The translations under genes and the position numbers were made by a program. The notes beneath the pieces are model-generated. The model was given only the letters and a program-made list of their open reading frames with translations. It searched no databases and was not told the origin of the DNA. DNA of 10,615 nucleotides from a virus (taxonomy: Duplodnaviria > Heunggongvirae > Uroviricota > Caudoviricetes): IMG/VR virus record IMGVR_UViG_3300028991_000014, positions 1 through 10,615 of that record; one strand, 5' to 3'. Of the stretch, positions 334-8,654 are shown piece after piece (the first letter of the stretch is position 1; each line of letters begins with the position of its first letter).

Positions 334-389
334 AAAACGATCGGTGCGATTGCTGATTTCCTTATGAAAAACGGTTGAGTTTTTGCCGC

Positions 390-427
390 GTCCTGGAGTT
401 CCTTACTTAACCCCAGGACTTTTTTTT
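390..427 (+). terminator. terminator-like hairpin plus T8 abutting the capsid start codon (possible regulated terminator or attenuator)
   Basis: Stem GTCCTGG (390-396) / CCAGGAC (413-419) with an inner GTT/AAC extension, followed by TTTTTTTT (420-427) and then ATG at 428. Confidence 0.3.
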
Positions 428-1585
428 ATGCCGAGAATAATCGAATTACGCCAGCAGAAAACCGCCATTAAAAATCAGATGCGCGACATGCTGGAGAACG
501 CGGAAAAAGAAAACCGCAGCCTTAACGATGCAGAGGGCGCAAAATTTGACGAATTACGCGCTAAAGCTGAATCCCTCGATAAAGACATTTCCCGCCTTGA
601 AGCCATTGCAGACGAAGAGCGCAGCAAGCCAGGTAAAAGCAGCCAGACCACTGACCCGGCAGAACTCCGCAACTACATCCTGACAGGTGAAACCCGCGCA
701 TTAAGTACAGGTGTCCCCGCTGATGGTGGTTATACCGTTATCCCTGAACTGAACACCGAAATCATGCGAATGCTGGCGGATGAGTCCACCATGCGCCGCA
801 TCTGTACCGTGAAAAAAATCAGCAGCAACGAGTTTAAGCAGCTTGTTTCCGCTGGCGGTGCGGTCGTTAACCACGGTGAAGAGGGTAAGGCACGCGAACA
901 GACCAGCACCCCGCAGATTAACGAGGTGAGCATTAAGCTGTATCCGGTCTATGCGTACCCGCGCACCACACAGGAAATCGTGGATTTTTCCGATGTGGAC
1001 ATCCTTTCATGGCTGACGGGCGAGATTGGCGACACCTTCACGGAAACCGAAGAAAGTGATCTGGTTGTGGGCGACGGTGACAAAAAAGCAAAAGGTTTTT
1101 TATCCGTACCCCGTGCAGAGAAGAACGACAAAGAACGTGATTTCGGAACGTTGCAGGTTATCAAGCCCGTTGATGATCTTGCCTGGACATCTGCGGACCC
1201 GCTGATCGATCTGAAATTTGCATTACGTAAAAAATACCGCAAGAACGCGGTATGGGTGGTTAACTCCACGACGGCGGCAAAACTCCAGAAGGTGAAGAAT
1301 GCGAACGGGGATTATATATGGCGTGACCGTTTACAGGCGGGTGATCCTGACACATTGCTGGGCCTTCCGGTCGAATATCTGGAGTTTATGCCGGATAACG
1401 TTATTGCCCTGGGCGACTTTAAACGCGGTTACTACATCGTTGATCACGAAACAGGTGTTCGCACCAGACCGGACAACCTGACAGAACCAGGATTCATCAA
1501 AATTTTCACGCAAAAATATTTAGGCGGTGGCGTGGTGGATTCGAACGCGATCAAGATTCTGGAACTGCCACAGGACGACGATTAA
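428..1585 (+). CDS. phage major capsid protein, HK97 family
   Basis: 385-aa product with a charged, coiled-coil-like N-terminal segment (delta-domain-like) followed by a capsid-type body; sits at the head of a protease/portal gene set. The ORF track begins at TTG 383; ATG 428 is chosen as start, but there is no clear SD so the start is uncertain. Confidence 0.8.
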   Translation: MPRIIELRQQKTAIKNQMRDMLENAEKENRSLNDAEGAKFDELRAKAESLDKDISRLEAIADEERSKPGKSSQTTDPAELRNYILTGETRALSTGVPADGGYTVIPELNTEIMRMLADESTMRRICTVKKISSNEFKQLVSAGGAVVNHGEEGKAREQTSTPQINEVSIKLYPVYAYPRTTQEIVDFSDVDILSWLTGEIGDTFTETEESDLVVGDGDKKAKGFLSVPRAEKNDKERDFGTLQVIKPVDDLAWTSADPLIDLKFALRKKYRKNAVWVVNSTTAAKLQKVKNANGDYIWRDRLQAGDPDTLLGLPVEYLEFMPDNVIALGDFKRGYYIVDHETGVRTRPDNLTEPGFIKIFTQKYLGGGVVDSNAIKILELPQDDD

Positions 1586-1595
1586 CAGCATACAG

Positions 1596-1620
1596 AAGGG
1601 GCTAAAAAGCCCCTTTAGTG
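1596..1620 (+). terminator. hairpin between capsid and protease genes (possible partial terminator or attenuator)
   Basis: Stem AAGGGGC (1596-1602) / GCCCCTT (1609-1615) with TAAAAA loop, followed by an interrupted T-run (TAGTGTTTTATG). Confidence 0.3.
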
Positions 1621-1640
1621 TTTTATGGGTGAAAAAAATT

Positions 1641-2198
1641 ATGAAGAGTATGGAAATCCGGTCATCGGAAATCACCACCAGCGCCAGCAACACGCTTACA
1701 GGCTACGTTGTTCGCTGGGATAACCTTTCGGAACTGTTATGGGGGGAGTTTTACGAAAAATTCCAGCGGGGGGCGTTTACTGAGTGGCTTGCGGCGGGTA
1801 ATGACGTTCGCGGCCTGTATGAGCATGACCACAGCATGTTACTGGGGCGCACCCGTTCTGGCACGCTGAAACTGGAAGAGGACGACACAGGGTTACGCTT
1901 TGAACTTACCCCACCGGATACCAGCACAGGGCGTGACGTTATCGAACTGGTTAAACGTGGTGATATATCCGGCATGAGCTTTGGCTTTCGTTCCCGTAAG
2001 GATGTATGGGATACCACAACAGATCCATGCGTGCGCACCGTGCTGGTGGCGGAACTGTACGAAATTACCGTTACATCCGTACCGGCTTACCCCGATTCCG
2101 GCGTGGAGCTGGCCCGCCGTTCCCTGTATGAGCAGCACCCCGAAAAAATGCCGCGTGCGGATAATCGCCGCTGGTGGGCGGATTTAGCGGGGGTGTGA
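1641..2198 (+). CDS. phage prohead (head maturation) protease, HK97 family
   Basis: Translation from ATG 1641 (MKSMEIRSSEITT...) has the HK97 prohead protease layout (LYEHDHS..., KRGDISGMSFGF, VPAYPDS). The 5' part of track ORF 1527 overlaps the capsid gene and is rejected. A GGTGA lies 9 nt upstream. Confidence 0.85.
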   Translation: MKSMEIRSSEITTSASNTLTGYVVRWDNLSELLWGEFYEKFQRGAFTEWLAAGNDVRGLYEHDHSMLLGRTRSGTLKLEEDDTGLRFELTPPDTSTGRDVIELVKRGDISGMSFGFRSRKDVWDTTTDPCVRTVLVAELYEITVTSVPAYPDSGVELARRSLYEQHPEKMPRADNRRWWADLAGV

Positions 2199-2199
2199 T

Positions 2200-3411
2200 A
2201 TGTGGCCTTTCAGAAGAAAAAAAGAGCAGCGCAGCATGACGCTTGATGAATTTATGGCGCTGGCTGGCACATCGAACACGGGGGCGGGTGAGTACGTATC
2301 ATCGGGGACAGCGGAATCACTCCCCGCCGTCATGAACGCCGTCACGGTCATATCTGAGGCGGTGGCTACTATGCCATGCTACCTGTACCTGGTACGCAAT
2401 GAGAAGGGGAAGGAGGCCCGCGAGTGGCTTGATTCTCATCCGGTCGATCATATCCTCAACGAGCGCCCGAACGCATGGCAAACCCCCTACCAGTTTAAGC
2501 GAATGATGATCCGCCACTGCCTGTTAAACGGTAATGCTTACGCGGTGATTCAGTGGGGGCGTGATGGTTTTCCGGCGGCTTTACATCCTTACCCGCCGCA
2601 GTCGGTGAACGTGGAGCAGACAGGAGAACACAACTGGCGCTATTGCATCACTGACGCCTACACCGGAAACACCCGCAACTATTTACCGTGGGAAGTACTT
2701 CACCTTCGTTACTCCACGGATGACGGCTTTATGGGGCGCTCACCTGTAACCATCTGCCGCGAATCGCTGGGGCTTGGGCTGGCCCAACAACGCCACGGCG
2801 CGAGCGTGATGCGTGATGGCATGATGGCAGCAGGGGTTATCACGTCAGGCGAATGGCTGGACGGCGTGAAGGGCAAACAGGCATTAGCCGCACTGGAACG
2901 CTATAAAGGGGCCAAAAACGCCGGAAAAACGCCCATCCTTGAAGGGGGCATGAGTTACCAGCAGCTGGGCATGAGTAACCAGGACGCCGAATGGCTGGCC
3001 TCCCGTCGCTTCACCATTGAAGACATCGCCCGAATGTTCAACGTCTCGCCGATTTTTCTGCAGGAATACAGCAACAGCACCTACAGCAATTTCAGCGAGG
3101 CAAGCCGCGCATTTCTCACCATGACGATGCGCCCGTGGCTGGCGAACTTTGAGCAGCAGATAAAAAACGCCTTGCTGGTGGTCTCGCCTGTACCTGGTAT
3201 CCGGTATCAGGTGGAGTTTGACAGCGCGGACCTGTTACGGGCCACACCTGGCGAACGCTTTGCCACCTATGAGCGAGGCATCAAATCCGGTGTTATGTGC
3301 CCGAACGAAGCCCGCGAACGAGAAGGGTTGTCTCCGCGTGATGGTGGTGATGAGTTCAGCCAGGCATGGAAACAGGAAGTAAAAATCAGCGAGGGAGAAA
3401 AACCGGAATGA
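2200..3411 (+). CDS. phage portal protein, HK97 family
   Basis: 403-aa product with portal hallmarks (ESLPAVMNAVTVISEAVATMP, LLNGNAYAVIQ, GGMSYQQLGMSNQDAEWL, IEDIARMFNVSP). GGGGG SD at 2189-2193; start is 1 nt after the protease stop. Confidence 0.9.
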   Translation: MWPFRRKKEQRSMTLDEFMALAGTSNTGAGEYVSSGTAESLPAVMNAVTVISEAVATMPCYLYLVRNEKGKEAREWLDSHPVDHILNERPNAWQTPYQFKRMMIRHCLLNGNAYAVIQWGRDGFPAALHPYPPQSVNVEQTGEHNWRYCITDAYTGNTRNYLPWEVLHLRYSTDDGFMGRSPVTICRESLGLGLAQQRHGASVMRDGMMAAGVITSGEWLDGVKGKQALAALERYKGAKNAGKTPILEGGMSYQQLGMSNQDAEWLASRRFTIEDIARMFNVSPIFLQEYSNSTYSNFSEASRAFLTMTMRPWLANFEQQIKNALLVVSPVPGIRYQVEFDSADLLRATPGERFATYERGIKSGVMCPNEAREREGLSPRDGGDEFSQAWKQEVKISEGEKPE

Positions 3412-3746
3412 ACATAGGGCGACTGCGTGACAGGGTAACGATTCAGACCCTGAAACAGACCAGAGCCATGACGGGCGAAATACTCGAAACGTGGGAGGAC
3501 GGTCACACACTCTGGGCAAGCGTGAACATGGTCAGCAGCAAGGAGGCCATTTCATCGGGTGCAGAGCTGGCGATTGGTACCGTAAGGATCTGGATACGGT
3601 ACCGGAAGGACATTAACGCCACCAGCCGGATAAAGGTCAATACGGGGCCGCTGGCGGGGCGTGTACTGAATATCATCGGGCAGCCGCTGCCGGATGCCGC
3701 CAGGACACGCCTTGAAATTCTTTGTCGTGAGGGCGCGGAAAAATGA
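3408..3746 (+). CDS. phage head-tail adaptor / head closure protein
   Basis: 112-aa product from ATG 3408 with motifs RVTIQ, TLWASV, RIWIRYRKDI, RLEILCRE typical of this family. Start overlaps the portal stop (ATGA); GAGGGAG SD at 3391-3397. Confidence 0.8.
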   Translation: MNIGRLRDRVTIQTLKQTRAMTGEILETWEDGHTLWASVNMVSSKEAISSGAELAIGTVRIWIRYRKDINATSRIKVNTGPLAGRVLNIIGQPLPDAARTRLEILCREGAEK

Positions 3747-4039
3747 CAGAAGAACTTATCACCCTGGAAGAAGTGAAACTCCATTGCCGCATCGATGGCG
3801 ACGAGGAAGACCAGTTAATCAGCGGATACATTGCCGCATCGCTTGAGGCGTGCCAGATACACATAGGCAGGCGCTTTGATGACGGGCTGGAGTTCACGCC
3901 AGCCATAAAGATTGGCTGCATGATGTTTATCGCTCACCTGTATGAGAATCGCCAGATTGTCGCGGATAACGCAAAAACACACGTACCCATGACGATTGGC
4001 GCACTCTGGACGGCTTACCGTGATGTGGGGGTGTACTGA
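3743..4039 (+). CDS. phage gp6-like head-tail connector protein
   Basis: 98-aa product MTEELITLEEVKLHCRIDGDEEDQLISGYIAAS... matches the gp6-like connector pattern. ATGA overlap with the adaptor stop. Confidence 0.8.
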   Translation: MTEELITLEEVKLHCRIDGDEEDQLISGYIAASLEACQIHIGRRFDDGLEFTPAIKIGCMMFIAHLYENRQIVADNAKTHVPMTIGALWTAYRDVGVY

Positions 4040-4479
4040 TGCCGTGGCAACCATTAAGACGATGTACAGAACCAGGCTGCAACAGGCGCGTGAAGTCCGG
4101 CAAGTGTGAGGAGCACAGACGCAGCGCACGCCAGCAGCAGGACAGCCGGAGAGGCAGCAGCAGGGAGCGAGGGTATACGAGGCAGTGGGAGAAATACCGC
4201 GCCATGTATCTGAGTAAAAACCCGTTATGTGCGCATTGCCTGGAAAAAGGAATATACAAGCCCGCCGTGGTGGTGGATCACATTATCCCAATCGATGGCG
4301 GTAATGATGTTCTCTTCTGGCCTGAGTGGAATCATCAGCCATTGTGCCAGGCGTGTCATAACCAGAAAACGAAATGGCTTGATCCGTCCACAAAAAACAA
4401 GCGTGCTGCGGGTGGATTCCGTGAGGAGGAAGAACGGGCCGCTAACCGCAATAACTGGATGTATGGCGCTGATGAATGA
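4039..4479 (+). CDS. HNH endonuclease (terminase-associated, cos-cleavage accessory type)
   Basis: HNH motif CAHC...VVDHIIPIDGGNDV...NHQPLCQACHNQKT; ATGA overlap with the connector stop; position immediately upstream of terS/terL is typical of HNH-dependent cos packaging. Confidence 0.85.
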   Translation: MPWQPLRRCTEPGCNRRVKSGKCEEHRRSARQQQDSRRGSSRERGYTRQWEKYRAMYLSKNPLCAHCLEKGIYKPAVVVDHIIPIDGGNDVLFWPEWNHQPLCQACHNQKTKWLDPSTKNKRAAGGFREEEERAANRNNWMYGADE

Positions 4480-4645
4480 GCGGGAACAAAACCGCCTTAT
4501 CCGTGGACTTATAAGGCAGCGTGACGCATGGAAGGCACAGGAAACAGGGCATAAAGATAAAGCATCAGGACGCGCAGAACGCATCACAGCGACGCGATTA
4601 AACGACCGTGACCGCGAGGTTATGGAATGTTTCCGCAATCGCTGA
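4472..4645 (+). CDS. hypothetical small basic protein (57 aa)
   Basis: ATG 4472 overlaps the HNH stop by 8 nt; translation MNEREQNRLIRGLIRQRDAWKAQ... is Arg/Lys-rich. It is the non-overlapping distal part of track ORF 4229-4645. No family recognised. Confidence 0.35.
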   Translation: MNEREQNRLIRGLIRQRDAWKAQETGHKDKASGRAERITATRLNDRDREVMECFRNR

Positions 4646-4768
4646 TGAGGCAGCCGGACGGGGTGGGGGGAGTTTTCAGGACGAACCCGACCCCGCCCAG
4701 AACCGACCGCCTCCCCAAATTTTTATGCACGGTAATTTTTTGAAAAATAATCTGGCGAAAAAATAAGC
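4646..4768. other. candidate cos (cohesive-end / terminase recognition) region
   Basis: Non-coding gap between the HNH region and terS with a G-run GGACGGGGTGGGGGGAG (4656-4672) followed by C-runs CCCGACCCCGCCC (4686-4698) and CGCCTCCCC (4708-4716). Position matches where HNH-dependent cos phages carry cos. Confidence 0.4.
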
Positions 4769-5125
4769 ATGGCAAGACCACCGAAAGCCCCCGCCTACCT
4801 GGATGATATCGCCGTGAAGCAGTGGCGGGAAAAATCGCGGCAGCTTGCGGAACGGGGAGACCTGACCCCTGCCGACTGGAGTAATCTGGAACTGTATTGC
4901 GTCAATTACTCGATATACCGGAAAGCCGTCGCAGACCTTGCGGCGCGCGGGTTCAGCATTGTTAACAGTCAGGGCGGAGAGAGCAGAAACCCCGCATTAA
5001 GCGCGAAATCCGACGCGGAAAGAGTGATGATAAAAATGGCCTCTTTGCTCGGTTTTGACCCGATAAGCCGCCGTAAAAATCCACCGGAAACAGAAGAAGA
5101 GGACGAGCTTGACCGCCTGGAATAA
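4769..5125 (+). CDS. phage terminase small subunit, P27 family
   Basis: 118-aa product MARPPKAPAYLDD...LELYCVNYSIYRKAV...GGESRNPAL...LLGFDPISRRK fits the P27-family TerS pattern; immediately upstream of and overlapping the large terminase gene. Confidence 0.85.
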   Translation: MARPPKAPAYLDDIAVKQWREKSRQLAERGDLTPADWSNLELYCVNYSIYRKAVADLAARGFSIVNSQGGESRNPALSAKSDAERVMIKMASLLGFDPISRRKNPPETEEEDELDRLE

Positions 5126-6770
5126 GTACGCAGAAGACGTAAAAACGGGCAAGATTCCGGCCTGTAAACGGCTGAAACAGGCCGTTAAACGATACTTTTC
5201 GGACCTTGAAAACCCCCTTTACATGTTCGATCGTGAGGTTGTTGAGCGGTTTATTGCCTTTTCCAGGGTGTGCCCGCACGTAAAAGGGCCGATGCGTGGA
5301 AGACCCATTGAGCTGGAACCGTGGCAGCAGTTTGCCTTTGCGTGCATCCTCGGCTTTAAGGTTAAGGCCACCGGAAGGCGCAAATACACGAGCGCCTTTA
5401 TCGAAGTGCCGCGCAAAAATGCGAAATCCACGACAGCCGCGATTCTGGCTAACTGGTTTCTGATTATGGAGAACGGGCAGCAGGATATTTACACCGCAGC
5501 GGTGAGCCGCGACCAGGCGCGGATCGTTTTTGATGATGCGCGTCAGATGTGCCTTTTATCCCGACCGTTACGCAAGAGAGTGAATATTCAGGCCCACAAG
5601 GTGATGCACCCGAAAAGCAACAGCCTGTTAAAGCCGCTGGCAGCAAAAGCGGCAACCATCGAGGGCACAAACCCAAGCCTTTCCATCGTGGACGAATACC
5701 ACCTACACCCCGATAACGGCGTTTATTCCGCGCTTGAGCTGGGGATGGGCGCACGTCCCGAAGGGCTGTTATTTGCCATTACCACATCGGGCAGTAACGT
5801 CGTTTCAGCCTGTAAACAGCACTATGATTATTGCTGCCAGATCCTGGACGGCGAAGAGGTCAACGATTCAATTTTTGTGCTGATTTACGAGCTGGACGAC
5901 GAAAACGAGGTTGATGATCCGGCGATGTGGATAAAGGCTAACCCTAACATCGATGTTTCCGTGGATCGTGAAAAACTGGCCTCAACCATCCAGAAAGCGC
6001 GGGGTATTCCGTCGCAATGGGTGGAGATGATGACAAAGCGATTTAATATCTGGTGCCAGGGGGCTACCCCGTGGATGGGTAACGGCGCATGGGCTGAGTG
6101 TGCCGGAACGTTCACGGAGGAAGATTTACACGGGCAGGAGTGTTACGCGGGGCTGGACTTATCATCAACCAGCGATATTTCCAGCGTGTGCTATGCCTTT
6201 CCGGTTGGTAAAACCATTATGCTGATTTCCCGTCATTATCTGCCGGAGTTCCAGCTACAGAACCCCGCCAATAAAAACCGCGCTGTCTATCGCCAGTGGG
6301 CTAAAGCGGGCTGGATACGCACAACGCCAGGTGACTGCATTGATTACGACCGGATCAGAGATGACATCATGCAGGATGCGGAGAAATTTAATATCAGGCT
6401 GGTGGGCTTTGATACGTGGAACGCCACGCACCTGAGAACGCAATTACAGGGGGCTGGTTTTGAGGTGGAGCCGTTCCCGCAAACCTACCTCAGATTCAGT
6501 CCGGCGGCGAAATCGTTCGAAGTTTTTGTTAACCGCAGGGTGATTGTGCATCGTGGCGATCCGGTGTTGTCCTGGTCGATGAGTAACGTCGTGATGCAGA
6601 GTGACGCGAACGCCAATATCAAGCCGAACAAGAAAAAATCACCGAACAAGATAGACCCGAGCGTAGCGGCGCTGATGGCGTTTGGTACATTCCAGGCAGA
6701 GCATGAGGATTTTGCTTTTGATATAAGCGACAGCCACCGCCAGAAACTGGAAGAATTTAGCGGGGTGTAA
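5109..6770 (+). CDS. phage terminase large subunit
   Basis: 553-aa product with an ATPase Walker A-like segment (EVPRKNAKSTTAA), DEYH Walker B-like motif and a C-terminal nuclease-type domain. Apparent TTG start at 5109 with AGAGGA SD 5 nt upstream; overlaps the terS 3' end. The first in-frame ATG would remove the conserved N-terminus. Confidence 0.9.
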   Translation: MTAWNKYAEDVKTGKIPACKRLKQAVKRYFSDLENPLYMFDREVVERFIAFSRVCPHVKGPMRGRPIELEPWQQFAFACILGFKVKATGRRKYTSAFIEVPRKNAKSTTAAILANWFLIMENGQQDIYTAAVSRDQARIVFDDARQMCLLSRPLRKRVNIQAHKVMHPKSNSLLKPLAAKAATIEGTNPSLSIVDEYHLHPDNGVYSALELGMGARPEGLLFAITTSGSNVVSACKQHYDYCCQILDGEEVNDSIFVLIYELDDENEVDDPAMWIKANPNIDVSVDREKLASTIQKARGIPSQWVEMMTKRFNIWCQGATPWMGNGAWAECAGTFTEEDLHGQECYAGLDLSSTSDISSVCYAFPVGKTIMLISRHYLPEFQLQNPANKNRAVYRQWAKAGWIRTTPGDCIDYDRIRDDIMQDAEKFNIRLVGFDTWNATHLRTQLQGAGFEVEPFPQTYLRFSPAAKSFEVFVNRRVIVHRGDPVLSWSMSNVVMQSDANANIKPNKKKSPNKIDPSVAALMAFGTFQAEHEDFAFDISDSHRQKLEEFSGV

Positions 6771-6783
6771 TGAGGTCAGCAGC

Positions 6784-7065
6784 ATGACAGAAGCCGAAAT
6801 ACTGCGATTAATCCGCCGCGTCTCTGGAATCAGCCAGCAGCATGACGAACAGGCCACGCAGCCGGACAGCGTGACCGCCGAAAATTATGCGCGTGTTGTT
6901 GCTGAGGTGATGCGCCGTGATGGTATCCAGCTTAATGATGTGGATATGCGCAACATACGGATCCGCGTTCTTGAAATGCTGGCCTACCGTCGCCGCGTGC
7001 AGACGTACAGGGAAAAAGCAAAAATTACGTACCACTGGAAGAAGCCGGAGCGGTTACGGCGGTAA
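6784..7065 (+). CDS. hypothetical protein (93 aa), last gene of the element
   Basis: ORF with GAGG SD about 8 nt upstream of ATG 6784; basic C-terminus (KKPERLRR); no recognisable family. Its stop abuts the first copy of a 28-bp direct repeat. Confidence 0.45.
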   Translation: MTEAEILRLIRRVSGISQQHDEQATQPDSVTAENYARVVAEVMRRDGIQLNDVDMRNIRIRVLEMLAYRRRVQTYREKAKITYHWKKPERLRR

Positions 7066-7070
7066 CTGGT

Positions 7071-7098
7071 TGAACTTAAAGCAAAGCGCAAAATTGCG
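7071..7098. repeat. 28-bp direct repeat, copy 1 (TGAACTTAAAGCAAAGCGCAAAATTGCG)
   Basis: Identical 28-mer recurs at 7290-7317; flanking bases are also partly similar (CGGTTAC...CTGGTTG). Confidence 0.8.
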
Positions 7099-7111
7099 TT
7101 GGCTGGTGGGT

Positions 7112-7131
7112 GAGTTGCAGATCTGCAACTC
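7112..7131. repeat. perfect 20-bp palindrome GAGTTGCAGATCTGCAACTC
   Basis: Exact self-complementarity read directly from the sequence. It lies between the two direct-repeat copies, together with further hairpins at 7203-7225 (8-bp stem CGATACCC/GGGTATCG) and 7263-7276 (GGCGGAATTCCGCC). Confidence 0.8.
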
Positions 7132-7289
7132 GACCATGAAATTACGGAAAATACCCGTAGTTTGGGTAGTAAGAGTAACACCCAGATTTTGGGGCTTACT
7201 CGCGATACCCAAATAAAGGGTATCGGTGGAAGAAATATCGTTTCTCATATGTGAGTACCGAGGGCGGAATTCCGCCTTCGGTTACTCGC

Positions 7290-7317
7290 TGAACTTAAAG
7301 CAAAGCGCAAAATTGCG
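7290..7317. repeat. 28-bp direct repeat, copy 2
   Basis: Identical to 7071-7098. Confidence 0.8.
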
Positions 7318-7644
7318 CTGATTACTGGTTGGAATTGTTCCAGAGTGCAAATTTACACTATGGCCTAACCCGTTGATATTTCCGGCAACCTCAATTTGAG
7401 GAGGCAGGGAACATCCCCTAAATCCGGTGATGTATTCGGCCCCTTTAACGGGTATTACGATAATCATAACACCTACCGAACAGGTAAAGGCCACCAGCCT
7501 GATTAACGTTTAACCGGAAAAAAAGCCAGGTATCCAATCTCGATATGTGGATCCCCATATCGACAGCAATGCCCCCTTAAAATTATCCGCCTTTATATTT
7601 CTTGTGCCTATTTGTTCCACGTTGTTTCATACAGTGCGCCGAAC

Positions 7645-7668
7645 GGTGTAGTCACTGGTGTAGTCATT
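7645..7668. repeat. tandem 12-bp direct repeats GGTGTAGTCACT / GGTGTAGTCATT near the element end
   Basis: Two adjacent near-identical units about 75 bp from the junction with tqsA. Candidate recombinase arm-type or regulator binding sites (inference). Confidence 0.5.
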
Positions 7669-7712
7669 TTGCGATTTTTGGCACTTTTTGTGGTGCAAAT
7701 TATTTAATTAAA

Positions 7713-7877
7713 TCAATGTGTTAAGTGAAATAAGTTATATATAACAGCAATAAATAATGCGAGAATAAACGGCACGATGATCTCGGCGGCAAAACGGATA
7801 CCGCAGAGAATAATGACCAGCATTCCCAACATAATGACGATTTTTAGGCCATTGAGCGTGATGATCGGCTTTGCCAT
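7713..7877 (-). pseudogene. tqsA: tqsA (ydgG) 5' fragment truncated by the element insertion
   Basis: Minus-strand translation from ATG 7877 gives [46 protein letters not shown], which matches the TqsA N-terminus as recalled. The frame then diverges into AT-rich element DNA (YNLFHLTH, stop at 7713-7715). Divergent from mdtJ as in E. coli. Confidence 0.7.
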
Positions 7878-8288
7878 GCTTGTCCCCGTTTTTTCTTCCT
7901 TTGCTAATAATAATGTCTTTTTCGCTCCGTCATCATAACGAAAATCAAACCGCTCAGGTAAAGAAGTGAAAATATTTTGAGTTAATTCTTAAGCTATGAT
8001 ACAAATCAGGCGTGTTCAACTACCGAGGACAATTATCATCCGCGATGACGAGAAGCAACACTGCGGATAATTGTAATATTATGGACAATTTGTTCAGGAC
8101 GTTATTTTCAACATTTACCCATCTTCGTACCTCATCCACTATCTTGCTCGTAGGTGAGCAGCACTGGCGCAACGCGCTTTAGTCCTTTCTTCTGCCTAAG
8201 CTTGCCCTATGCGCGGGGCTTGACCACTTTACTTTGGTTTCGCTGAATTAAGCGAAAATTAAAATAATTCTCTTGCAGGAGAAGGACA

Positions 8289-8654
8289 ATGTATATTTAT
8301 TGGATTTTATTAGGCCTGGCTATTGCTACAGAAATTACCGGTACGCTGTCAATGAAATGGGCGAGCGTCAGTGAGGGAAATGGCGGCTTTATTTTAATGC
8401 TGGTGATGATTTCTCTGTCGTATATATTTCTCTCTTTCGCCGTTAAAAAGATCGCCTTAGGCGTAGCTTATGCGCTGTGGGAAGGTATCGGTATTTTATT
8501 TATTACCTTGTTTAGCGTTTTGTTATTCGACGAAAGTTTATCGCTGATGAAAATTGCCGGGTTAACCACCCTGGTCGCCGGGATTGTGTTGATCAAATCA
8601 GGTACCCGTAAAGCGCGTAAACCTGAACTGGAGGTGAACCATGGCGCAGTTTGA
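8289..8654 (+). CDS. mdtJ: spermidine export protein MdtJ (SMR family)
   Basis: 121-aa four-TM SMR-type protein matching E. coli MdtJ as recalled; GGAGAAGGA SD upstream; overlaps mdtI start. Confidence 0.95.

What the first reader, a model, noticed from the sequence alone, without database searches (positions are those of the whole stretch)
6784..7065. Unassigned 93-aa protein encoded after terL as the terminal gene of the element
The gene has a reasonable ribosome-binding site and lies where a conventional phage would place portal or head genes, yet it resembles none of them. Its stop codon abuts the first 28-bp repeat. Function unknown; in a satellite this position could hold a helper-interaction or packaging-specificity factor.
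Basis: inference. Interest (0 to 1): 0.35.

Follow-up and report, generated by a model that had tools for sequence, protein, structure and literature searches.

The report
Conserved last gene of E. coli satellites
The 93-codon gene after the large terminase is a real, widespread but uncharacterised "backbone" gene that closes the late operon of several kinds of E. coli phage satellites (PICIs); it is not tied to any one packaging system, and its function remains unknown.

Summary
The ORF is exactly as described: ATG 6784, TAA 7063-7065, 93 aa, GAGG 8 nt upstream, 13 nt after terL. It is a real gene. Over 49 alleles dN/dS is 0.23 in frame, and 76 of 77 full-length copies are intact. It matches PHROG 1561 (unknown function) full-length and matches no Pfam, NCBIfam, PADLOC, PDB or fold-library entry.

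The element is a capsid-forming PICI inserted in tqsA. The same gene, about 90% identical, is also the last gene of PICIs with quite different morphogenesis modules (Nu1-like Rpp, ClpP-capsid fusion with DUF1441). It also occurs in PICIs whose integrases and AlpA proteins are only 24-29% identical. 18 of 62 satellites with ≥92%-identical terL lack it.

So it is a backbone gene, not a packaging-specificity factor and not an integrase-matched excisionase. The protein is a small helical domain plus a strongly basic tail (net +9) ending in an invariant WKKP motif within YxWKKPERLRR.

Its stop codon is the first three bases of an array of ~45-nt units. Each unit has an IHF-consensus-like head and a palindrome whose stem sequence varies. 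The array co-occurs with the gene.

My best guess (about 0.35) is a nucleic-acid-binding protein working with this right-end module. No test of this gene turned up in the papers I could search. Ordinary as an object, moderately interesting as an open question.

The parts
6772..6775 (+). Shine-Dalgarno-like GAGG, 8 nt before the ATG, inside the 13-nt gap after the terL stop codon
   Evidence: Read directly from the sequence.
6784..7065 (+). The 93-aa gene ('ORF93'): 11.2 kDa, pI 10.4. Predicted helices at residues 3-13, 32-45 and 52-80, then a basic tail (residues 67-93, net +9) ending in the invariant WKKP motif of YxWKKPERLRR.
   Evidence: ORF. PHROG 1561 full length, E 1.4e-56. dN/dS 0.225. 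76/77 copies intact. Invariant columns. AlphaFold2 model, pLDDT 66.9. Charge and pI.
5109..6770 (+). terL, the upstream neighbour. In capsid-forming PICIs, homology to other PICI classes stops at its end and resumes at the ORF93 ATG.
   Evidence: Pfam TerL_ATPase and TerL_nuclease. Alignment with L002.
7063..7099 (+). Repeat unit 1. The head TAACTGGTTGAA (7063-7074) begins with the ORF93 stop codon. Palindrome CGCAAAATTGCG at 7087-7098. Contains the first 28-nt repeat (7071-7098).
7104..7281 (.). Hairpin-rich cassette of about 180 nt inserted between units 1 and 2. It is absent from many related PICIs.
   Evidence: Folding 7060-7340 gives z = -8.9 (+ strand) and -8.5 (- strand). Window 7085-7286 is present, unannotated, in many of the 753 E. 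coli genomes matched by a 7066-7330 query. Mosaic presence or absence among loci. No Rfam match.
7282..7319 (+). Repeat unit 2. Head TTACTCGCTGAA, palindrome AGCGCAAAATTGCGCT (7304-7319). Contains the second 28-nt repeat (7290-7317).
7322..7359 (+). Repeat unit 3. Degenerate head TTACTGGTTGGA and imperfect palindrome AGTGCAAATTTACACT.
   Evidence: last row of alignment A3.
7366..7401 (+). Repeat unit 4. The reverse complement of head TAACCCGTTGATA is a perfect IHF consensus (7366-7378, minus strand). Palindrome CCTCAATTTGAGG at 7389-7401.
7541..7562 (.). 22-bp near-perfect palindrome CGATATGTGGATCCCCATATCG. It is conserved in 37 of 51 related right ends, including PICIs with an unrelated integrase and the Citrobacter element.
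7645..7666 (+). Two direct repeats GGTGTAGTCA (7645-7654 and 7657-7666). They are probably arm-type sites of this integrase family, being present only in PICIs with the related integrase.
   Evidence: The function is inferred.
7711..7740 (.). IHF-consensus match (7711-7723, + strand) and the right junction of the element with the interrupted tqsA gene (about 7740).

Best explanation
SHOWN. 6784-7065 is a genuine protein-coding gene under purifying selection. It is the conserved last gene of the backbone of Escherichia-type phage-inducible chromosomal islands (PICIs). It follows whatever morphogenesis/packaging module the island carries. It does not co-vary with the packaging module, replication genes, integrase or AlpA. 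It travels together with a non-coding right-end module that starts at its own stop codon: an array of ~45-nt units (head TAAC-N4-TGAT, then a palindrome whose stem sequence varies) and a 22-bp palindrome.

INFERRED.
- It is co-transcribed as the last cistron of the helper-induced late operon (13-nt gap with an RBS after terL).
- The protein is a small three-helix domain carrying an Arg/Lys-rich C-terminal tail (net +9, with an invariant WKKP motif), so it most likely binds nucleic acid.
- My preferred mechanism: it binds DNA or RNA of the adjacent right-end module and organises or insulates that end. For example, it could control what happens to late-operon transcription as it runs out of the island. 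In the integrated state that transcription runs into host DNA. In the excised circle or concatemer it runs across attP into int, which lies about 720 nt downstream on the same strand.

That it is a real backbone gene and not packaging-specific I hold at about 0.9. The mechanism I hold at about 0.3-0.35.
For: - Coding: dN/dS 0.225, codon-position bias 28/18/54; 76/77 copies intact.
- Prevalence: 1515 of 5426 complete E. coli genomes; 207 IMG/VR contigs; this exact protein on 497 contigs.
- Backbone status: the upstream neighbour is cf terL (20 loci), the Nu1-like Rpp (33), or other modules including a ClpP-capsid fusion and DUF1441. Alleles are shuffled among these classes.
- No co-variation: ORF93 is 88-90% identical where Int is 27-29% and AlpA 24-26% identical.
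- Protein features: basic tail and invariant residues are kept in the homologues of only about 40-53% identity. Three-helix model.
- Link to the array: a unit head lies at the end of the gene in all 51 loci with at least 700 nt of downstream sequence (overlapping the stop codon in most), and the Citrobacter homologue also has a unit head at its stop codon. The palindrome centre sits at a fixed position in 24 of 26 unit types, with 23 different stems; stems of 5 bp or more occur in 73% of units against 8% of shuffles.
- Co-occurrence: among cf-type satellites, 0 of the 17 loci without ORF93 (all that had downstream sequence) have units, against 15 of 20 sampled loci with it.
- IHF-consensus matches cluster just after the gene: 4 of the 6 in 31 kb of L084, against 1.4 expected.
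- Circular form: a 10.79-kb circular PICI record shows ORF93, then 721 nt, then int, all on one strand.
Against: - No homology or fold match gives a DNA- or RNA-binding domain. The structural model is only moderately confident (pLDDT 66.9).
- The co-occurrence of gene and array may reflect physical linkage only, with the whole right end gained or lost together.
- Eleven loci carry ORF93 followed by a different downstream sequence (GTGAC repeats) rather than typical units.
- The number and spacing of units vary widely.
- The palindromes differ within a single array, so the palindrome itself cannot be the site of one sequence-specific protein.
- There are no expression data.
- One near-identical island (L001) carries a premature stop in the gene, so it is dispensable for carriage of the island.
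Confidence: 0.35

Rival explanations
1. A trans-acting takeover or interference protein. The conserved helical core and the invariant C-terminal motif dock onto a component common to all hosts or helpers of these islands (for example RNA polymerase, a lambdoid late-gene regulator or another conserved machine). The arginine-rich tail would work somewhat like the RNA-binding motifs of lambda N or HK022 Nun. The adjacent repeats would be unrelated.
For: - The gene is independent of every island-specific module, as expected if the target lies outside the island.
- Alleles are mosaic. Variable positions are concentrated in a few patches, and the gene diverges faster than its neighbours: 89-94% identical where terL is 95-99%. 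This is typical of genes facing a changing partner.
- The N-terminal 30 residues are replaceable while the core and tail are invariant.
- Other satellites place small interference proteins in the same operon: Rpp (PMC6739421) and Ppi in SaPIs.
Against: - There is no similarity to any known interference or antitermination protein. The N/Nun resemblance is compositional and recalled from memory, not tested.
- In PMC6739421, individual expression of the EcCICFT073 genes downstream of ori showed that only rppA blocked lambda. I could not confirm that the ORF93 homologue was among the clones.
- Overall dN/dS is 0.23, with no demonstrated positive selection.
Confidence: 0.25
2. One reading: a packaging or head-completion accessory factor. 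This would be a positional analogue of lambda gpW after the terminase genes, or a cos-associated factor.
For: - It always follows a terminase-related gene where one is present: terL (5-13 nt gap), the Nu1-like Rpp, or DUF1441 (2-nt gap).
- In Rpp-type islands an inverted lambda-like cosQ-cosN lies 65 nt upstream of its ATG.
Against: - The same alleles serve islands that build their own capsids and cut their own cos with HNH/TerS/TerL, and islands that hijack lambda-type terminase.
- 18 of 62 satellites with at least 92%-identical terL lack it.
- The capsid-forming module already has gp6-like and head-closure proteins.
- There is no lambda-type cosN in this window.
- The published 9-gene packaging module seems not to include it.
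- It has no sequence or fold similarity to any virion or terminase protein.
Confidence: 0.1
3. A recombination directionality factor or architectural protein for excision and integration, binding the arm next to attR together with IHF.
For: - It is small and basic, encoded at the far end from int and next to the right arm, as in some islands.
- IHF-consensus sites and arm-type repeats lie downstream.
- In the circular form it sits just upstream of attP-int.
Against: - It is about 90% identical in islands whose integrases are only 27-29% identical and whose arm motifs differ. AlpA, the excisionase-like HTH protein next to int, co-varies with Int instead.
- The predicted fold is all-helical and there is no excisionase/HTH_17 match.
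- The distance from the gene to the arm varies from about 240 to 1000 nt.
Confidence: 0.07
4. Not a functional protein: the ORF is kept open by chance, or conserved only because of overlapping DNA or RNA elements.
For: - One natural copy has a premature stop.
- The last codons overlap a repeated DNA unit.
- No homologue has a known function.
Against: - dN/dS is 0.225 in frame against more than 1.2 in the alternative forward frames, and third-position changes dominate.
- 76 of 77 copies are intact.
- Homologues down to about 40-45% identity keep length, the invariant core and the tail.
Confidence: 0.05

Closest known systems
PHROG 1561 and the 'hypothetical / prophage protein' at the right end of E. 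coli O157:H7 CP-933C (O-island 51 = EcCIEDL933), e.g. WP_000133425
   Same: Full-length match to the family profile (E 1.4e-56). 89% identical to the O157:H7 copy, in the same position after terL. The exact window protein is already in public collections on 497 contigs.
   Different: Nothing of substance: it is a member. The family has no known function, and I found no paper that tests it.
Rpp (redirecting phage packaging) of E. coli PICIs and Ppi of SaPIs: small satellite proteins that bind helper TerS
   Same: A small protein encoded at the end of the satellite's helper-induced operon. In many islands ORF93 is the gene immediately after rpp.
   Different: Rpp is a Nu1-like DNA-binding mimic (PF07471). 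ORF93 has no such domain, occurs together with Rpp rather than in its place, and also occurs in islands with their own terminase.
Lambda gpW (head-completion protein encoded directly after the terminase genes)
   Same: Position directly after terL, small size, basic character (from my own knowledge of lambda).
   Different: No sequence or fold similarity was detected. The predicted fold is all-helical. The module already encodes gp6-like and head-closure proteins. The gene is present in islands that make no capsid of their own.
Arginine-rich-motif transcription factors of lambdoid phages (lambda N, HK022 Nun)
   Same: About 100 aa, very basic. An arginine-rich helix is followed by an aromatic-plus-lysine motif, and short stem-loops lie next to the gene (composition and sequence reading only; my recollection of N and Nun).
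   Different: The motif is at the C-terminus, not the N-terminus. No alignment is significant. The adjacent hairpins have A/T-rich loops rather than boxB-type loops. There is no evidence of antitermination or arrest.
Excisionases / AlpA-Vis family recombination directionality factors
   Same: A small basic protein of an integrative element, encoded next to an att arm.
   Different: No HTH_17/excisionase match, an all-helical model, and no co-variation with the integrase. The island's own AlpA-like protein fills that role better.

Membership tests
PHROG 1561 (uncharacterised family from phage and prophage genomes) | Full-length, significant match to the family profile | tested here: met
   E 1.4e-56, residues 1-93 against profile positions 1-93 of 93.
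Capsid-forming PICI (the element that carries the gene) | Own HK97-type capsid, prohead protease, portal, head-closure and connector proteins, then HNH, TerS and TerL, in that order | tested here: met
   Pfam and PHROG assignments for 383-6770. The order matches the description in 10.1101/2022.09.08.507074.
Capsid-forming PICI (the element that carries the gene) | Integrase, AlpA-type regulator and primase/replication module; no tail or lysis genes; size 10-18 kb; own attachment site | tested here: met
   The left part is outside the window. The 96%-identical complete copy L001 at the same tqsA site has int, an HTH regulator, primase, SSB and PerC, with about 15 kb between the tqsA fragments.
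cf-PICI packaging module (is ORF93 one of its genes?) | Present wherever the module is present | tested here: not met
   18 of 62 loci with terL at least 92% identical lack it. It also occurs behind three other kinds of module.
cf-PICI packaging module (is ORF93 one of its genes?) | Mutation abolishes transfer without affecting replication | not testable with these tools
   Published mutants cover a 9-gene module. From EDL933_1785 being the 9-kDa gene just upstream of the capsid gene, I infer that 'hypothetical gene 1792' is the 60-aa ORF between HNH and terS, and that ORF93 would be 1795, untested.
Terminase small subunit / Rpp-like proteins | Match to Terminase_4, Phage_Nu1 or DUF1441 profiles | tested here: not met
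   No Pfam family at E up to 0.1. The neighbouring genes in other islands do match.
Excisionase / recombination directionality factor | Excisionase-type winged-helix / HTH_17 domain | tested here: not met
   No Pfam or NCBIfam match. The model has three helices and no strands.
Excisionase / recombination directionality factor | Co-variation with the cognate integrase and its arm sites | tested here: not met
   ORF93 is 88-90% identical where Int is 27-29% identical. AlpA co-varies with Int instead. The arm motif is absent from L083 while ORF93 is kept.
Known anti-phage defence proteins | Match to a PADLOC model | tested here: not met
   0 families at E up to 1.
Lambda N / HK022 Nun type arginine-rich-motif proteins | Arginine-rich motif that binds a boxB hairpin, with an effect on transcription elongation | tested here: inconclusive
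   Only composition could be examined: the tail has net +9 and short hairpins lie downstream. There is no significant alignment. Binding and function cannot be tested here.

The most novel reading that the evidence does not exclude
ORF93 and the repeat array that begins at its stop codon form a previously undescribed protein-plus-site module at the right end of enterobacterial PICIs. The array consists of ~45-nt units with an IHF-consensus-like head and a palindrome whose stem sequence varies, followed by a conserved 22-bp palindrome. The small basic protein, possibly with IHF, would assemble on the array as DNA or RNA. This could gate transcription from the late operon across attP into int in the excised form. 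Alternatively it could mark a recombination hotspot where right-end cassettes and whole packaging modules are exchanged between satellite classes.
Probability: 0.2. Interest if true: 0.55.

Novelty: already known. Interest (0 to 1): 0.3.

Why it matters
PICIs are a well-studied model of molecular piracy and a major vehicle of gene transfer in E. coli. Almost every gene of the E. coli islands' late operons has been assigned a role. This one has not, although it is present in more than a quarter of complete E. coli genomes and is kept across satellite classes that otherwise share only the replication and integration backbone.

Two practical consequences follow from showing that it is independent of the packaging system and linked to a conserved non-coding array:
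- It removes one tempting annotation (packaging factor).
- It points experiments at the right end of the island: transcription exit, int expression in the circular form, and module exchange.

If the gene turns out to be dispensable, it is simply a conserved hitchhiker and the finding is ordinary.

Tried and rejected
Searches that gave nothing:
- Pfam, NCBIfam and PADLOC.
- tblastn against 50,697 phage genomes.
- PDB sequence-profile search; the only hit was at E 1.6.
- Foldseek of the AlphaFold2 model against PDB and BFVD; best E values 0.41 and 0.28, no hit at E ≤ 0.001.
- Rfam on 6500-8300; only chance-level hits.
- tRNA scan of the window.

Searches for distant relatives:
- An exhaustive phmmer scan of 1.8 billion cluster representatives found only 39, mostly fragments or frameshift products. 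The most distant real one is about 45% identical.
- A profile search added no named relatives.
- A scan of one genome per species found only Shigella flexneri.

Literature:
- No paper names the protein.
- RgdR of O-island 51 is a different gene, near alpA.
- The Tai defence systems sit next to pri, not here.
- The EcCIMP1 and ciprofloxacin papers gave nothing specific.

Ideas rejected:
- The cos site of this element lies downstream of ORF93. There is no lambda-type cosN in the window, and the region is shared by islands with different packaging systems.
- The 28-nt repeat always abuts the stop codon. In other islands it lies 11 to 250 nt away, or is absent.
- The 28-nt repeat is simply a minus-strand terminator. 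This is plausible for this variant, but other unit variants have no T-run.
- The units are integron-like attC sites. Only a superficial resemblance of the head, and no integron integrase is present.

Full report
**The observation**

The ORF runs from ATG 6784 to TAA 7063-7065 and encodes 93 residues. It starts 13 nt after the terL stop codon (6768-6770), with GAGG at 6772-6775. The exact 28-nt repeat lies at 7071-7098 and 7290-7317. A longer imperfect copy pair (7060-7112 / 7279-7331) overlaps the stop codon. The description is therefore accurate.

**What the element is**

The window holds, in order, an HK97-type major capsid gene, prohead protease, portal, head-closure protein, gp6-like connector, HNH endonuclease, TerS, TerL and then the ORF. 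It is followed by an N-terminal fragment of tqsA on the other strand, then mdtJI, ydgD and asr. A 96%-identical complete copy at the same site (L001) has an integrase, an HTH regulator, an Icd-like protein, DUF4222, a primase, SSB and PerC upstream, and the rest of tqsA beyond the integrase. This is the architecture of the capsid-forming PICIs described for EcCIEDL933 (10.1101/2022.09.08.507074).

**Is it a gene?**

From 82 loci fetched from E. coli genomes and IMG/VR I obtained 77 full-length copies.
- 76 are intact. L001 has CAG changed to TAG at codon 73.
- Over 49 distinct alleles, pairwise dN/dS is 0.225 in the annotated frame and 1.4-1.7 in the other two forward frames. Variable sites by codon position number 28/18/54.
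- The open antisense frame 6808-7035 is the mirror frame and is less conserved.
- The gene is found in 1515 of 5426 complete E. coli genomes and in 207 IMG/VR contigs. The exact window protein is on 497 contigs, always called hypothetical or 'prophage protein'.

**What family?**

It matches PHROG 1561 (unknown function) over its full length, E 1.4e-56. It has no Pfam, NCBIfam or PADLOC match, no tblastn match in 50,697 phage genomes and no PDB sequence match.

The family is narrow. An exhaustive scan of 1.8 billion cluster representatives gave 39 hits, mostly fragments. The most distant genuine relatives (about 39-45% identity) come from Citrobacter. A scan of one genome per species found only a Shigella genome.

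**The protein**

An AlphaFold2 model (pLDDT 66.9) has three helices (residues 3-13, 32-45, 52-80), a disordered linker and a C-terminal tail. It has no significant structural neighbour in PDB or BFVD.

The protein is 11.2 kDa with pI 10.4. Residues 67-93 carry net charge +9, and the distant homologues keep +8 there. Across the family the N-terminal ~30 residues are replaceable. Y35, V38, M43, N51, D54, I58, R59, R61, L66 and the WKKP motif of the C-terminal YxWKKPERLRR are invariant.

**Context: the main result**

Homology between this island and other PICIs starts exactly at the ORF's ATG. Among the 82 loci, the gene directly upstream falls into these classes:

| Upstream context | Loci | Gap to ORF93 |
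|---|---|---|
| cf-type terL | 20 | 13 nt to the terL stop codon |
| Nu1-like 'terminase small subunit' (Rpp type, PF07471) | 33 | not uniform |
| Other modules, including a ClpP-protease/capsid fusion with a DUF1441 protein | remainder | 2 nt in a 10.79-kb circular PICI record |

Further points:
- In the Citrobacter element, and in E. coli islands carrying ProQ and PerC genes, the homologue is again at or near the right end.
- Allelic blocks of the protein are shuffled among these classes.
- Within cf-type islands, terL is 95-99% identical while ORF93 is 89-94%.
- The gene is 88-90% identical between islands whose integrases are 27-29% and whose AlpA proteins are 24-26% identical.
- Among 62 satellites with terL at least 92% identical and enough downstream sequence, 44 have the gene 5-13 nt after terL (68-100% identity) and 18 lack it. 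In the one of these I examined (L141), the satellite sits next to a truncated prophage terL and a portal gene. That suggests a helper-embedded type.

Hence the gene belongs to the island backbone and right end, not to any packaging system. It is not an integrase-matched excisionase.

**Literature**

Every gene of the EcCIEDL933 'packaging module' was mutated. All mutations abolished transfer except the one in 'hypothetical gene 1792', which reduced it severely. The module is later said to have 9 genes, and the regions before and after it are called variable and expected to hold immune systems.

EDL933_1785 is a 9-kDa protein of CP-933C with a 406-nt upstream intergenic region (PMC5120812). This fits the 74-aa ORF just upstream of the capsid gene once the unannotated perC/pchE gene is skipped (map of L084). 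Counting on from it gives:
- capsid = 1786
- HNH = 1791
- 1792 = the 60-aa ORF between HNH and terS (window 4463-4645)
- terS = 1793
- terL = 1794
- this gene = 1795

On this inference the gene has not been tested. No paper in the library names it. RgdR of the same island is a different gene, near alpA.

**What lies after the gene**

The stop codon TAA is the first three bases of a unit head, TAAC-N4-TGA(T/A). A short palindrome follows about 20 nt later.
- The window has four such units, at about 7063, 7282, 7322 and 7366. A hairpin-rich 180-nt cassette is inserted between the first two.
- Across loci I found 135 hairpin-bearing units of 54 sequence types. The palindrome centre is at a fixed column in 24 of 26 types. 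There are 23 different stems. Stems of 5 bp or more occur in 73% of units against 8% of shuffled controls.
- Head matches number 170 on the + strand and 27 on the - strand of the same regions.
- The commonest heads are the reverse complement of the IHF consensus WATCAANNNNTTR. 4 of the 6 matches in 31 kb of L084 lie in the 400 nt after the gene. In the window, 2 of 3 matches lie at 7366-7378 and 7711-7723.
- A unit head lies at the end of the gene (offset -3 or -12) in all 51 loci with at least 700 nt downstream, and at the stop codon of the Citrobacter homologue.
- Among cf-type satellites, none of the 17 without the gene (that had downstream sequence) has units, whereas 15 of 20 sampled loci with it do.
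- A 22-bp palindrome (window 7541-7562) is present in 37 of 51 right ends, including islands with an unrelated integrase.
- The direct repeats GGTGTAGTCA (7645-7666) occur only with the related integrase and are probably its arm sites.
- The number and order of cassettes between the gene and the arm vary widely. The 28-nt repeat abutting the stop codon is particular to this variant.
- In Rpp-type islands an inverted lambda-like cosQ-cosN lies 65 nt upstream of the gene's ATG. The window has none.

**Interpretation**

Firmly established:
- It is a real, conserved, uncharacterised backbone gene.
- It is the last cistron of the late operon of Escherichia-type PICIs.
- It is unrelated to packaging specificity.

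The mechanism is inference only. A small helical domain with a conserved, highly basic tail suggests nucleic-acid binding. Linkage to a conserved non-coding module that begins at its stop codon suggests that module is its substrate. In the circular form the gene, the array, attP and int lie in series on one strand. I therefore favour a role in organising or insulating the right end and its transcription, at about 0.3-0.35.

The rivals are:
- a trans-acting interference or takeover protein (0.25)
- a packaging or head-completion accessory (0.1)
- a recombination directionality factor (0.07)
- no function (0.05)

The remaining probability is 'something else'.

**Verdict**

The finding is correct as an observation and ordinary as an object. 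It is an annotated hypothetical protein of a known satellite family. Its value is as a pointer to an untested conserved gene and to an undescribed repeat array next to it.

Noticed in passing
window 7063-7401 (units at about 7063, 7282, 7322, 7366); also L084 15564-15960 and L085 10258-10310: An array of ~45-nt units downstream of the gene. Each unit has a head TAAC-N4-TGAT, whose reverse complement in the commonest variants is the IHF consensus, and a palindrome at a fixed distance whose stem sequence differs from unit to unit (23 stems seen). Many internal units start with GCGGTAAC, the same bases as the 3' end of the gene. I found no description of these units.
   Followed up: partly
window 7104-7281: A hairpin-rich cassette of about 180 nt between units 1 and 2. 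Folding 7060-7340 gives z = -8.9 on the + strand and -8.5 on the - strand. The cassette (window 7085-7286) is present, unannotated, in many of the 753 complete E. coli genomes matched by a 7066-7330 query, and has no Rfam match. It could be a small RNA gene or a mobile structured cassette.
   Followed up: partly
window 7541-7562: A 22-bp near-perfect palindrome, CGATATGTGGATCCCCATATCG, at a fixed distance (103-127 nt) from the putative integrase arm repeats. It is conserved in 37 of 51 related right ends, including islands with an unrelated integrase and a Citrobacter island. It looks like an operator, but no binding protein is known.
   Followed up: partly
window 7645-7666, 7711-7723 and about 7740; tqsA fragment 7713-7877 (minus strand): The right attachment region. 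It has two direct repeats GGTGTAGTCA (probable integrase arm sites), an IHF-consensus match and the junction with tqsA. The island therefore disrupts the autoinducer-2 exporter gene.
   Followed up: partly
window 4463-4645 (+), between HNH and terS: A 60-aa ORF, annotated as hypothetical in L001 and L084. By locus-tag counting it is probably the 'hypothetical gene 1792' whose mutation severely reduces EcCIEDL933 transfer. By analogy with HK97-type phages, the island's cos site probably lies in this HNH-terS interval.
   Followed up: partly
L002 11058-11069 (+) and 11925-11936 (-); the same arrangement in about 40 other loci: Rpp-type PICIs carry two lambda-like cosN sequences in inverted orientation flanking the Nu1-like rpp gene. 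These are presumably the published cos1 and cos2. The second, with a cosQ-like GGGTCCT, lies 65 nt upstream of the ORF93 start.
   Followed up: partly
L001 14285-14566: A nearly identical island at the same tqsA site, in a bovine E. coli strain, has a premature stop (CAG to TAG, codon 73) in this gene. The gene is therefore not needed for carriage of the island.
   Followed up: yes
L141 4660-7350 and 17 similar loci: In L141, a satellite with 92-94%-identical terL but without ORF93 or the unit array lies next to a truncated prophage terL and a portal gene. This suggests a helper-embedded satellite. The 17 other loci without ORF93 were not examined in this way; most begin with the same sequence after terL.
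   Followed up: partly
L002 12414-12527 (minus strand); the corresponding window region around 7405-7480 is rearranged: A 37-codon ORF for a very hydrophobic peptide (MFVVVALMVCVVIMTIQ...) lies in the right-end non-coding region of some islands. It may be a small membrane or toxin-like peptide. It is disrupted in the window.
   Followed up: no
L084 versus L002 (both between roxA and phoQ in O157:H7 strains): Two O157:H7 strains carry different satellite classes (capsid-forming versus Rpp-type) at the same attachment site, with 99.5%-identical integrases. The exchanged block is bounded on the right by the ORF93 start codon. This is evidence for whole-module swapping between satellite classes.
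   Followed up: partly
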